Source of the DNA: the human T2T-CHM13v2.0 reference genome, Homo sapiens
Assembly: GCF_009914755.1 (NCBI RefSeq)
Contig: NC_060935.1
Strand: one strand, 5' to 3'
DNA length: 64,000 nucleotides
A program made the position numbers and the translations under genes. Below are positions 37,787 to 46,760 of this stretch, one piece after another; the stretch's first letter is position 1; every line of letters begins with the position of its first letter. The notes under the pieces are model-generated. The model was not told where the DNA came from, ran no database searches, and saw only the letters and a program-made list of their open reading frames with translations.

Positions 37787-38196
37787 ACTCCAATCCTTTA
37801 AAATGTGTTTTTTTCTCAGACTCAGTCTTCTCACATACATACATAAATTGAACCATACCAAACAGCTGAGAATGATGTCTAGAATTCTCTGGAAAAACAT
37901 CTCTGTATGCCTAGTTCTGTTCTCTCTCGCAGTCTTCTCTGCAAATTCTTGCCTAAAGTTATAGTTATCTTTGGCTTCTCAATTCAGAAAATCTGCCAGA
38001 CTCCACTTGGTTTCATCATTCATATGCCATTACTGAATATTCTCTCCAGGCAGAAAACTGTGGCAACCTTAGCTTTCACTTCATTAATTTCTCATTTCTC
38101 AGAAATCTCTATCCTTCCATCCCCAGTATAGTGTCTTGAAAATCATTGTTTCATGTATTTTTCTAATTTTGCAGTGTTTCAGGTGCAAGGGTAATC

Positions 38197-38229
<33 letters not shown>

Positions 38230-38779
38230 TATATATATATATACACACACATACGTATACACGTGCCATGGTGCTTTGCTGCACCCATTAGCCTACCATC
38301 TACATTAGGTATTTCTCCTAATGCTATCCCTCCCCTAGCCCCCAACCTCCCCCACAGGCCCTGGTGTGTGATGTTCCCCTCCCCGTGTTCATGTGTTCTC
38401 ATTGTTCAACTCTCACTTATGAGTGAGAACCTGGAGCAATTGGTTTTCTGTTCCCGTGTTAGTTTGCTGAGAATGATGGTTTCCAGCTTCATCCATGTCC
38501 CTGCAAAGGACATGAACTCATCCTTTTTCATGGCTGCATAGTATTCCATGGTGTATATGTGCTACATTTTCTTAATCCGGTCTATCATTGATGGACATTT
38601 GGGTTGGTTCCAAGTCTTTGCTATTGGGAACAATGCTGCAATAAACATATGTGTGCATGGGTCTTTACAGTAGAATGATTTATAATCCTTTGGGTATATA
38701 CCCAGTAATGGGATTGCTGGGTCAAATGGCATTCCTGGTTCTAGATCTTTGAGGAATTGCCACACTCTCTTCCACAATG
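38197..38779 (-). mobile_element. L1PA (L1PA7/8-like) 3' fragment, tail end replaced by a (TA)n(CA)n microsatellite
   Basis: Minus-strand FLKDLEPGMPFDPAIPLLGIYPKDYKSFY; 3'UTR runs into dinucleotide repeats at 38197-38260. Confidence 0.9.
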
Positions 38780-39381
38780 GAGGCCAATAGTAAATGTTCT
38801 CATAATTATGGAATTAAAGTAATGTTAATTTTAATTTTAAAGTAAATTTAATTCCTCTGAAGGGTAATCTTTTCCCTTTTACTCCATCCTAGTAAAGTAT
38901 AAGTCCCCTAAATTATTTTTCTTAAAAAAAAAATCAAACATTATTCCTCTTAAAATAAAAAGCCAGAGTTACGTAAGTTTAGGAAGTATTAAAAATTATC
39001 GGGGATTGGCCAAGATGGCCGAATAGGAACAGCTCCGGTCTACAGCTCCCAGCGTTAGCGACGCAGAAGACGGGTGATTTCTGCATTTCCATCTGAGCTT
39101 TGAAGAGAGCAGTGGTTCTCCCAGCACGCAGCGGGAGATCTGAGAACAGGCAGACTGCCTCCTCAAGTGGGTCCCTGACCCCTGACCCCCGAGCAGCCTA
39201 ACTGGGAGGCACCCCCCAGCAGGGGTGGACTGACACCTCACACAGCCGGGTACTCCAACAGACCTGCAGCTGAGGGTCCTGTCTGTTAGAAGGAAAACTA
39301 ACAAACAGAAAGGACATCCACACCAAAAACCCATCTGTACATCACCATCATCAAAGACCAAAAGTAGATAAAACCACAAAG

Positions 39382-40398
39382 ATGGGGAAAAAACAGAACA
39401 GAAAAACTGGAAACTCTAAAAAGCAGATCGCCTCTCCTCCTCCAAAGGAACGCAGTTCCTCACCAGCAATGGAACAAAGCTGGAGGGAGCATGACTTTGA
39501 CGAGCTGAGAGAAGAAGGCTTCAGACGATCAAATTACTCTGAGCTATGGGAGGACATTCAAACCAAAGGCAAAGAAGTTGAAAACTTTGAAAAAAATTTA
39601 GAAGAATGTATAACTAGAATAACCAACACAGAGAAGTGCTTAAAGGAGCTGATGGAGCTGAAAACCAAGGCTTGAGAACTACGTGAAGAATGCAGAAGCC
39701 TCAGGAGCCAATGCGATCAACTGGAAGAAAGGGTATCAGCAATGGAAGATGAAATGAATGAAATGAAGCAAGAAGGGAAGTTTAGAGAAAAAAGAATAAA
39801 AAGAAACGAGCAAAGCCTCCAAGAAATATGAGACTATGTGAAAAGACCAAATCTACGTCTGATTGGTGTACCTGAAAGTGACGGGGAGAATCGAACCAAG
39901 TTGGAAAACACTCTGCAGGATATTATGCAGGAGAACTTCCCCAATCTAGCAAGGCAGGCCAACATTCAGATTCAGGAAATACAGAGAACGCCACAAAGAT
40001 ACTCCTCGAGAAGAGCAACTCCAAGAAACATAATTGTCAGATTCACCAAAGTTGAAATGAAGGAAAAAATGTTAAGGGCAGCTAGAGAGAAAGGTCAGGT
40101 TACCCTCAAAGGGAAGCCCATCAGACTAACAGCGGATCTCTCAGCAGAAACTCTACAAGCCAGAAGAAAGTGGGGGACAATATTCAACATTTTTAAAGAA
40201 AAGAATTTTCAACCCAGAATTTCATATCCAGCCAAACTAAGCTTCAAAAGTGAAGGAAAAATAAAATACTTTACAGACAGGCAAATGCTGAGAGATTTTG
40301 TTACCACCAGGCCTGCCCTAAAAGAGCTCCTGAAGGAAGCACTAAACATGGAAAGGCACAACCGGTACCAGCTGCTGCAAAATCATGCCAAAATGTAA
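39382..40398 (+). pseudogene. L1 ORF1p, inactivated
   Basis: MGKKQNRKTGNSK...LLQNHAKM*, with in-frame TGA at 39673-39675 and 39829-39831. Confidence 0.95.
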
Positions 40399-40446
40399 AG
40401 ACCATCGAGACTACGAAGAAACTGCATCAACTAATGAGCAAAATAA

Positions 40447-44290
<3,844 letters not shown>

Positions 44291-46760
44291 ACAATGAGAA
44301 CACATGGACACAGGAAGGGGAATATCACACTCTGGGGACTGTTGTGGGGTGGGGGGAGGGGGGAGGAATAGCATTGGGAGATATACCTAATGCTAGATGA
44401 CGAGTTAGTGGGTGCAGCGCAGCAGCATGGCACATGTATACGTATGTAACTAACCTGCACATTGTGCACATGTACCCTAAAACTTGAAGTATAATAATAA
44501 TAATTTAAAAAAAAAGTGTAGGGATTGAGTAGTGGAAAAAAAAACAAAAAAAATTATCAAGCAGGTGTCTTTGCTATAGGTATTTTCAGAAACTTGAGTT
44601 TTCTAATGTAATTTCCTTACAAATATCAAAGGGTACAAAAATAGCAGAAGCCATTTTAAACTATAAGCACTTCATCTGCCTTGTGGATTAACCAATATGC
44701 TTAATTCCTTCTGGAAAACATTACGAACAATGCCCTCAGTTTGCTGTAAAAATGTGATGAATGACTTCTTTTAAGCTACTTGCTTCAACTACCTCCAGCT
44801 GTGTATTTAAAAAATTCACATTTTTTATCTGTTTAGGTCAATAGTAAGTGCTCTAATTATGTAATTAAATTAATTAAATAGTACTTTTTAAACACCATGA
44901 AATAAATGTGCAAATTTTTAAGGGATATTATTTTACACTAATTAAGTAGGACATCTTGATAAAAGTTATTGGCAAAAAATAAGTTGATACTGATTTAGTC
45001 TTAAGGAAGAAATCTAAAATGCAGAGTAAAGATAATAGTAAAAATTTAGACTTCTTCAGAGATTTTTTCACAATTAAAAAACATTCTCACATCCTTCACA
45101 AAAAATTGAAACTAGAAAAAATGATTGACACTGCAATCAGTGGACTCATACTCAAATAAAAGACTTTAGCTTTACAGCAAAAGACTGGCAAATAAATGCA
45201 TATTTGTATGCTTTATATTTAAGTAAAATTCTAAAGATACATATACATTGTTTTAAATTTTTTTTTGCCTTAAGCACATTTTTACTTACAAAGCTAAACA
45301 CAAGTCCTAATAAGATTGGTTTTTAAAGCTTCTATTCTATTCGAGTAGTTTGTTCTCTACTCTAGTAATTTTCTTATTCTATTTAATTATGTATTTTTTT
45401 AGATTATTGTTTCTCATTGCTAACCAGCTTTGGCTGAAAAATGTTCCAAAATACTTGCTTTTGTGGCTTTTCTTCATTTCCATTAGTAATAGAGTTAGAT
45501 TGACAGTTCAAAGCAACTTAAAATTATTTTAAGCCACTTTTGTCTGAGAATTCCCATGTAAAGCAGGATAAATACCATATATAATGAATTAAACAGGTAG
45601 GTGGAAAAGTTGGTTTCTGATGAACCAACACAACCCCCAGAAGATGGGCATTAAAAATGTTCTTCAAATGTCTTTCGACAATAGGGCAGAGAAAGAATGA
45701 AGATAATTTTCAAAGTCACACAAAGGACATTTTGTTTCCAAAGATCACTTTAGAAACAAGAAATCAGGATTGAGTCTTGCCATATTCCCTCTGTCTACAC
45801 CATTTTAGTATTCAGATTAGAGAATGTCTAGAACTTACTGGAACCTAAATGACACCAGTCTTTTAAGCTTTAGTTTTACAATACAGAGATAAGACATTGG
45901 GAAAATAAAATAGGATTACAGAGACCAGTACTCTGAATAGCTAAACATGACATAAAATGTTATTATATTTACTTACTTTTTGTCTTGTTTTCATTTTGTC
46001 TGACTATATAAACAATAAAACTCTCTTAGTTTCTAATAGATTAAAAATATCTTTAATGTTGAGATACTGTGTCAATTTAGAGCTCTTAAATCAGACCCTC
46101 CTATTAATTTAAAGTTCCCTTGTTTTCAGTTAAATCAAGGGAGGCAAAATATTCACAAAGCCTCCTTTGTAAGTTCCATTGATGCTCCCATCTTTTTCTC
46201 ACTCTCCTAGTGTCTTCATTTTATCTTTACCACAGATTGAATTTCATAGTCAGCCAACTGAAACACTGCTTTGCATTTGTTTCAACCTCCTTGATTCTAT
46301 CTCTAGGTTCATTCTATTCTGTTGTTAAAATCACAGTCCTGGGTAAATGCAATTCCTTACCTACTCAGAACTGCATCAGTATAGCTAGATGTGGCTGGAT
46401 AAATGTGTATGACCACTCAGGTTAAAATCATTACCACAAATTTCAAGCCCAACCTTTATTGCTTGACAGTAAAACTACATTTCTTCAGTCCACTCATTTA
46501 CTTACTTGTAAGAAGATTATTTTATGCATTCCTTTTTCTCTTCAAACCCCATTCTCATTTGAGTTTCTACTTCATTAAGGAAATTGAAGTACTTGAGAAG
46601 AATTTCTACAAACTTCCACTACTGAAACTACTGACATACTAGCATTTGTGTTTATACACTTGCCCTTTTTTCCTATGTATACACATAGATTATGCATGCT
46701 CCTATTTAAAGCCAATTCTCCAAATTTCCACCATATAACACCCTTTCATCTATTTAAGTA

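What the first reader, a model, noticed from the sequence alone, without database searches (positions are those of the whole stretch)
39001..39381. LINE-1 retrotransposed from a spliced mRNA (SpIRE 97/622 junction at 39097/39098)
Seen: the L1 has an intact 5' terminus and TSD, but its 5'UTR is only 381 bp, and ...CATTTCCATCTGAG joins directly to CTTTGAAGAGAGC exactly after element nt 97. Known: in L1HS/L1PA consensus, CTGAG is followed by the donor GTACC and CTTTGAAG is preceded by the acceptor ...GACAG (~nt 621); copies spliced at these sites are called spliced integrated retrotransposed elements. Inference: ~524 nt were removed as a GT-AG intron before reverse transcription. That deletes most of the CpG-island sense promoter, the antisense promoter and ORF0, so this copy was probably transcriptionally crippled on arrival despite complete ORF1/ORF2 spans.
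Basis: partly seen in the sequence, partly recalled or inferred. Interest (0 to 1): 0.8.

Follow-up and report, generated by a model that had tools for sequence, protein, structure and literature searches.

The report
Known spliced LINE-1 copy (SpIRE97/622-85)
This is a dead, roughly 10-20-million-year-old human LINE-1 copy that was reverse-transcribed from an RNA whose 5'UTR had lost a 524-base intron; this very copy is already listed in a 2018 catalogue of such elements, so it is an ordinary, known case.

Summary
Window 39001-44506 is a full-length-type L1 (+ strand). Its 5'UTR is only 381 nt, and ...CATCTGAG|CTTTGAAG... joins at 39097/39098. Unspliced L1s from the same genome carry a median of 524 nt there, starting GT and ending AG. 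A 10-bp target-site duplication (AAAAATTATC) flanks the element.

Larson et al. 2018 (PMC5860796) list this exact locus as SpIRE(97/622)-85: L1PA3, hg38 chr11:29416064, TSD 10, EN site TTTT/A. Their S1 Data shows the same flanks and 5' sequence. The assembly holds 135 matches to the 30-nt junction probe and none to the reversed control.

- **Coding state:** both ORFs are broken. ORF1 has two premature stops; ORF2 has one frameshift and two premature stops.
- **Subfamily:** the copy sits at the last L1PA3 stage before L1PA2 and lacks the 129-bp ZNF93 segment.
- **Origin of the junction:** SpIREs occur at every stage of the unspliced master lineage, which argues for repeated independent splicing.
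- **3' end:** the tail holds a 20-nt non-L1 insert between two A-runs. It maps to one L1-free site on chr2, probably an orphan 3' transduction that the catalogue scored as "No".

Interest is low.

The parts
38991..39000 (+). 5' copy of the target-site duplication, AAAAATTATC. The site reads TT|AAAAA, which is the L1 endonuclease site TTTT/A on the bottom strand.
   Evidence: S1 Table gives TSD 10 and TTTT/A; the printed empty site is
39001..39097 (+). L1 5'UTR exon 1 (L1 nt 1-97), ending ...CATCTGAG. It has the usual 5' length, with 3 private differences at nt 6-8.
   Evidence: the 24-mer at the 5' end is unique in the genome
39097..39098 (+). 97/622 splice junction. A median of 524 nt, starting GT and ending AG in unspliced copies, is missing here.
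39098..39381 (+). Remaining 5'UTR (L1.3 nt 622 onward). It lacks the 129-bp ZNF93-site segment that older copies carry at window 39252-39256.
   Evidence: for the 129-bp segment
39382..40398 (+). ORF1, 338 codons plus TAA, of normal length. It is broken by in-frame TGA at codons 98 (39673) and 150 (39829).
   Evidence: Pfam Transposase_22 and Tnp_22_dsRBD
40399..40461 (+). 63-nt spacer between the two ORFs
   Evidence: a 63-bp spacer is described in the paper's introduction
40462..44290 (+). ORF2. It is open for 530 codons, shifts frame within 42011-42051, has in-frame TGA at 43238 and 43937, and ends at 44288-44290.
   Evidence: Pfam Exo_endo_phos and RVT_1
44291..44506 (+). L1 3'UTR
44507..44515 (+). 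First A-run (9 A)
44516..44535 (+). 20-nt non-L1 insert, GTGTAGGGATTGAGTAGTGG. It has one other exact match in the genome, at G000:C2:145788243 (+). With the neighbouring A's the match covers window 44514-44544, 31 of 32 columns.
44536..44548 (+). Second A-rich tail, A9-C-A3, up to the start of the 3' TSD copy
44549..44558 (+). 3' copy of the target-site duplication, AAAAATTATC

Best explanation
Window 39001-44548, with its TSDs, is SpIRE(97/622)-85, a late-L1PA3 LINE-1.

**How it arose.** It was made by ordinary target-primed reverse transcription of an L1 RNA that began at the canonical L1 start and lacked nt 98-621 of the 5'UTR. That segment has the boundaries of a GT-AG intron, with the donor inside the RUNX3 site. 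It was most probably removed by the spliceosome from the transcript of an unspliced source element during this round of retrotransposition.

**What the copy was like on arrival.** It kept the first 97 nt, the last ~284 nt of the 5'UTR and both ORFs, but lost most of the internal promoter. It was therefore a poor source of further copies.

**What it is now.** It has since decayed: about 2.2% private changes, two stops in ORF1, and one frameshift plus two stops in ORF2.

**Shown versus inferred.** The structure, the junction, the TSD, recurrence of the junction at independent sites, and identity with the published locus are shown. Splicing as the cause, and the weak promoter of this particular copy, are inferred; the promoter assays were done on an L1.3-based construct.
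For: - **Gap boundaries.** The two-block alignment has a gap bounded by GT...AG, median 524 nt.
- **Recurrence.** There are 135 junction matches and 0 for the reversed control. Among 36 SpIRE 5' flanks, the window's is unrelated to all others, and only L004/L026/L027 share a flank as segmental duplicates.
- **Insertion hallmarks.** A 10-bp TSD, a TT|AAAA site and an A-tail are present.
- **Already in print.** S1 Table gives SpIRE(97/622)-85, PA3, chr11:29416064, 5503 bp, TTTT/A, TSD 10. S1 Data prints the same empty and filled site.
- **Repeated independent origin.** Across 36 SpIREs and 32 unspliced copies, SpIREs occur at each successive stage of the lineage that leads to unspliced L1PA2. 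By diagnostic columns they number 6 in the old 129-bp-containing group, 4 at 555A/398G, 12 at 555C/398G, 4 at 555C/398A (including the window), and 10 in the young clade. A lost intron cannot be regained, so these stages need separate splicing events.
- **No close relative.** The best identity is about 96-97% to spliced and unspliced copies alike. Of 33 rare positions in 1500, most are unshared or CpG-type.
- **Published assays.** Luciferase activity was 267-fold (wild type) versus 7-fold (97/622) over background, and retrotransposition was about 7% without CMV.
Against: - 97/622-spliced cDNA was not detected by RT-PCR or northern blot from an L1.3 5'UTR in HeLa cells, so no RNA evidence for this splice was seen in the paper I read.
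- Within one evolutionary stage, the data cannot tell a fresh splice from a copy of a SpIRE parent.
- A SpIRE can act as a source: bioRxiv 10.1101/2025.02.02.635956 reports that the RAP1GDS1 SpIRE used a host promoter (passage only).
- The label 'SpIRE' is clustered on the tree: 15 changes against a shuffled mean of 23, with 0 of 500 shuffles as low. My SpIRE sample was biased, because L002-L010 were chosen for likeness to the window.
- No orthologous ape locus could be examined.
Confidence: 0.9

Rival explanations
1. The junction was inherited. The element is a daughter of an earlier SpIRE97/622 that was still transcribed, from its weak residual promoter or a nearby host promoter. On this view no splicing happened in the round that made this copy.
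For: The SpIRE 5'UTR keeps about 7-fold luciferase activity over background and about 7% retrotransposition. A SpIRE in RAP1GDS1 is reported as a source. Copies carrying the short-L1PA3 marker seem enriched for SpIREs: 8 of the first 100 marker hits, against 3 of 100 for the young marker and 3 of 100 for the long marker (crossed with 17; Fisher p = 0.078, or 0.024 if the SRGAP2 duplicates count once).
Against: None of the 35 other distinct SpIREs examined (of 134 other junction matches) is a close relative, and none shares the window's private variants. The element starts at L1 nt 1 with no host exon at its 5' end, unlike the RAP1GDS1 daughters described. The 3' insert points to a chr2 site that holds no L1 in this genome, so no extant SpIRE is the parent. 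SpIREs are spread over all stages of the unspliced lineage.
Confidence: 0.12
2. A full-length L1PA3 inserted here, and a later genomic deletion between the two AG dinucleotides removed 524 bp.
For: There is a 2-nt AG microhomology at the junction. No orthologue could be checked.
Against: The identical junction occurs at 134 other places in the genome, with unrelated flanks in the sample examined. The ends are exactly GT and AG, with a pyrimidine-rich stretch before the AG.
Confidence: 0.01

Closest known systems
SpIRE97/622 (Larson et al. 2018, PLoS Biol, PMC5860796)
   Same: Same donor (after nt 97) and acceptor (before nt 622), the same ~524-nt loss, TSD, A-tail and EN site. This very locus is entry 85, classed PA3.
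   Different: Nothing essential differs. The catalogue scores 'Transduction: No', yet a 20-nt unique insert lies between two A-runs at the 3' end. The text held for S1 Data is cut before the 3' end, so I could not see how the authors marked it.
SpIRE97/790, SpIRE97/853 and SpIRE97/976
   Same: Same donor G98U99 and the same mode of origin.
   Different: They use other acceptors. 97/976 also truncates ORF1p, and 97/790 is confined to L1PA1-2. Here the acceptor is at 620-621 and ORF1 has full length.
L1 3' transduction, orphan type (recalled concept; Moran 1999 and Goodier 2000 not read here)
   Same: The order is L1 3'UTR, A-run, unique non-L1 DNA, second A-tail, TSD. The unique DNA maps to one other locus.
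   Different: It is only 20-32 nt long, and no L1 lies within 1.5 kb upstream of the matching chr2 site in this genome.
Processed pseudogenes
   Same: An intron is removed before L1-mediated reverse transcription, and the copy has a TSD and an A-tail.
   Different: Here the template is the L1's own RNA, acting in cis.

Membership tests
SpIRE97/622 | The body is an L1PA1-L1PA6 element with ORF1 and ORF2 | tested here: met
   Pfam Transposase_22, Tnp_22_dsRBD, Exo_endo_phos and RVT_1. Identity to other L1PA copies is 94-97%.
SpIRE97/622 | 5'UTR nt 97 is joined directly to nt 622, and the missing block starts GT and ends AG in unspliced copies | tested here: met
   acceptor AG in 27 of 27 resolved loci out of 33, median gap 524 nt. 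GT is partly built in by the way the loci were fetched.
SpIRE97/622 | Hallmarks of target-primed reverse transcription: TSD, 3' A-tail, L1 EN site | tested here: met
   10-bp TSD at 38991-39000 and 44549-44558, site TT|AAAA, and A-runs.
SpIRE97/622 | Listed in the published catalogue | tested here: met
   S1 Table row SpIRE(97/622)-85, and S1 Data with identical flanks and 5' sequence.
SpIRE97/622 | Strongly reduced promoter activity of the 5'UTR | not testable with these tools
   Shown only for an L1.3-based construct. There are no expression data for this copy.
L1PA3, short form lacking the 129-bp ZNF93 segment | The 129-bp segment is absent, and the copy lies outside the L1PA2/L1PA1 clade | tested here: met
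   There is no insert at window 39252-39256, where 13 of 32 unspliced and 6 of 36 spliced rows have one. The window lies outside the young clade (95* support). It carries the older states at columns 228, 247, 882 and 964 and the younger states at 398, 540, 555 and 741. The paper classes it PA3.
L1 3' transduction | Unique non-L1 DNA lies between the L1's A-run and a second A-tail that abuts the TSD | tested here: met
L1 3' transduction | The transduced DNA maps immediately downstream of a source L1 | tested here: not met
   There is one exact match, at C2:145788243. No L1 lies within +-1.5 kb, and no sibling insertions carry DNA further downstream.

The most novel reading that the evidence does not exclude
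The 20-nt insert in the tail, 31 of 32 columns with its A's, is an orphan 3' transduction that the published catalogue missed. It would tag a lost, never-fixed source L1 at a single L1-free site on chr2 (G000:C2:~145788241). If an ape or human haplotype still holds that source, this would be a parent-daughter pair. Such a pair could show directly whether a 97/622 SpIRE was spliced de novo or copied from a SpIRE parent. A weaker side reading is that SpIRE97/622 formation peaked (about 8% of copies) in the short interval after L1PA3 lost the ZNF93 segment.
Probability: 0.5. Interest if true: 0.3.

Novelty: already known. Interest (0 to 1): 0.12.

Why it matters
It matters little by itself. The element confirms a described class and is entry 85 of the published list. 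SpIREs matter as a record of how splicing cripples L1 and of the trade-off at the RUNX3 site, which doubles as the splice donor. This copy adds only small points: its place at the last L1PA3 stage before L1PA2, its dead ORFs, and a possible orphan transduction that could lead to its parent locus.

Tried and rejected
- **Close relatives.** The 25-mer with the private TG at 39226-39227 has 3 other hits. All three are older unspliced copies, about 92% identical and carrying the 129-bp segment, so the sharing is coincidental. The 5'-end 24-mer is unique.
- **Full-length copies for a longer tree.** A smaller request of 20 x 1651 nt was granted. The tree therefore rests on 1067 columns and is mostly unresolved, with 42 of 65 inner forks open.
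I used plain 25-mer markers instead and crossed the listed places by eye. Only the first 100 places of each marker are listed, and two-mismatch SpIREs are listed only up to chr5, so the fractions are lower bounds.
- **Sibling insertions** with a longer chr2 transduction were not found. The only other hit is an 86%-identical second copy 940 bp downstream on chr2 itself.
- **The 112-aa antisense ORF** at 38996-39334 has no Pfam match and I took it as chance.
- **The 20-mer in S1 Data** gave no hit, but the stored text of each sequence is cut, so this says nothing.
- **Post-insertion deletion and assembly artefact** were rejected. The same sequence is in hg38 (as printed in the paper) and in this assembly.

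Full report
**1. What is there**

Window 39001-44506 (+ strand) is an L1.
- It starts GGGGATTGGCCAAGATGG at 39001. The ORF1 ATG is at 39382, so the 5'UTR is 381 nt.
- CATTTCCATCTGAG ends at 39097 and CTTTGAAGAGAGC follows at 39098.
- The flanks carry AAAAATTATC at 38991-39000 and again at 44549-44558. The upstream context TT|AAAAA is the L1 endonuclease site.
- NCBI masks 39006-44523. The element lies in an intron of LINC02755, antisense to it (hub annotation).

**2. Is the gap a GT-AG intron?**

The window's own genome is held as G000. The window is C11:29512001-29576000.
- A 22-mer ending in the donor GT has 2745 exact matches and 0 for the reversed control.
- Against 10 such unspliced loci, window 39001-39500 aligns in two blocks, ~9-97 and 96-500, lying 520-526 nt apart. 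One locus has its own deletion.
- With 20 further loci and 3 found by another route, 27 of 33 could be resolved by exact anchors. All 27 end the missing block in ...TCTGACAG. The block is 520-526 nt in 24 of 27, median 524.
- GT is built in for 30 of the 33 by the way they were fetched.
- The junction is ambiguous by the dinucleotide AG.

**3. Recurrence**

- The 381-nt 5'UTR matches at least 40 other places end to end at 94-97% (only 40 of 2566 candidates were scored).
- The 30-nt junction probe has 135 matches at <=2 mismatches (52, 28 and 55 for 0, 1 and 2 mismatches) and 0 for the reversed control.
- Among 36 SpIRE 5' flanks, only L004/L026/L027 share a flank at 98-99%. These are segmental duplicates on chr1. 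Two other pairs share short repeat-like stretches. The window's flank matches none.

**4. Already in print**

Larson et al. 2018 (PMC5860796) is the source. I read sections 6-9, 11, 14 and 16, passages elsewhere, S1 Table part 1, and passages of S1 Data.
- They define SpIRE97/622 and report 116 in hg38, 53 of them L1PA3.
- S1 Table lists SpIRE(97/622)-85: PA3, chr11, start 29416064, 5503 bp, EN site TTTT/A, TSD 10, transduction 'No'.
- S1 Data prints its empty and filled sites, which are the window's flanks and 5' sequence.
- On an L1.3 construct, the 97/622 5'UTR gave 7-fold luciferase activity over background against 267-fold for wild type. Retrotransposition without CMV was about 7%.
- They did not detect 97/622-spliced cDNA in HeLa cells.
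- The word stem 'phylogen' does not occur in the main text.

**5. State of the copy**

- ORF1 has normal length (338 codons plus TAA) but in-frame TGA at codons 98 and 150.
- ORF2 is open for 530 codons, changes frame within 42011-42051, has TGA at 43238 and 43937, and ends at 44288-44290.
- Pfam finds the L1 ORF1p domains, the endonuclease and the reverse transcriptase.
- In the first 1500 nt, the window's base is rare (<25% of 45 comparators) at 33 positions, or 2.2%. Most are unshared or sit in CpG-decay contexts. At recalled neutral rates this fits roughly 10-20 Myr, in line with L1PA3.

**6. Where it sits in L1 history, and whether the junction was made anew**

I built a query-anchored alignment of 1067 columns from 36 SpIREs (35 distinct loci plus the window) and 32 unspliced copies. 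L065 was dropped as truncated.
- The tree is comb-like. It runs from a 129-bp-containing group, through a grade of 22 rows without the segment (20 SpIRE, 2 unspliced), to a supported young clade of 27 rows (10 SpIRE, 17 unspliced).
- The label is clustered: 15 changes against a shuffled mean of 23, with 0 of 500 shuffles as low. The SpIRE sample was biased towards the window's kin and towards exact junctions.
- At diagnostic columns the window has the younger states at 398, 540, 555 and 741 and the older states at 228, 247, 882 and 964. That is the last step before L1PA2.
- SpIREs occur at every stage: 6, 4, 12, 4 and 10. The lineage that continues to L1PA2 is unspliced, so these stages need separate splicing events.
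- Within a stage, parentage cannot be resolved. The window has no close relative.
- A 2025 preprint reports a SpIRE in RAP1GDS1 that became a source through a host promoter (passage only). The window's element starts at L1 nt 1 without host sequence.

**7. Side count**

| 25-mer marker | Exact hits | SpIRE places among first 100 listed |
|---|---|---|
| Short L1PA3 form | 189 | 8 |
| Young form | 1199 | 3 (the one duplicated SRGAP2 insertion) |
| Long form | 884 | 3 |

SpIRE places are those. Fisher p is 0.078, or 0.024 if the SRGAP2 duplicates count once. This is suggestive only.

**8. The 3' end**

- After the 3'UTR come A9 (44507-44515), GTGTAGGGATTGAGTAGTGG (44516-44535), A9-C-A8, and the TSD, whose first five A's are the last five of that A8 run.
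- The 20-mer has exactly one other exact match, at C2:145788243 (+). The two-mismatch hits (9) are no more frequent than for the reversed control (14).
- About 0.004 exact matches are expected by chance.
- The chr2 match extends to AAGTGTAGGGATTGAGTAGTGGAAAACAAAAA, 31 of 32 columns.
- No L1 lies within 1.5 kb of the chr2 site, and no other insertion carries DNA from further downstream there.
- My reading, at about 55-60%, is a short orphan 3' transduction from a source L1 that never became fixed. The alternative is a template switch onto a chr2-derived RNA.
- The catalogue's 'No' was probably an oversight, but the stored S1 Data is cut before the 3' end.

**9. Verdict**

The element is already known, down to this locus. 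Interest is low.

Noticed in passing
window 44507-44558; L051 1499-1530 (G000:C2:145788241-145788272): A 20-nt unique insert lies between two A-runs in the L1 tail. It matches a single L1-free site on chr2 (31 of 32 columns with the adjoining A's). It is probably an orphan 3' transduction, although the published table says 'No' transduction.
   Followed up: partly
G000:C2:145788241-145788356 and C2:145789181-145789295: The chr2 segment that holds the 20-mer has a second copy, 86% identical, about 940 bp downstream on the same strand. Its nature is unknown.
   Followed up: no
genome-wide (crossed): SpIRE97/622 copies make up 8 of the first 100 hits of a marker for L1PA3 copies lacking the 129-bp ZNF93 segment. 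For the markers of younger and older copies the figure is 3 of 100 each. This hints at a peak of 97/622 SpIREs just after the deletion, but the statistics are weak.
   Followed up: partly
L004, L026, L027 (G000:C1:205597410, C1:121324184, C1:144089976): Three SpIRE97/622 copies share 98-99% identical flanks. They are one insertion copied by the chr1 segmental duplications; the table names SRGAP2B for one of them. The 135 junction matches are therefore not 135 separate insertions.
   Followed up: partly
two-mismatch rows: Many two-mismatch junction matches share the same two differences (CCAACTGAG and ...AGAGTAG). They are probably an older subfamily's version of the same SpIRE junction.
   Followed up: no
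window 38700-38782: An older L1 ORF2/3'-end-like fragment (+ strand) ends about 220 bp upstream of the SpIRE. It falls inside the masked stretch 38190-38782.
   Followed up: no
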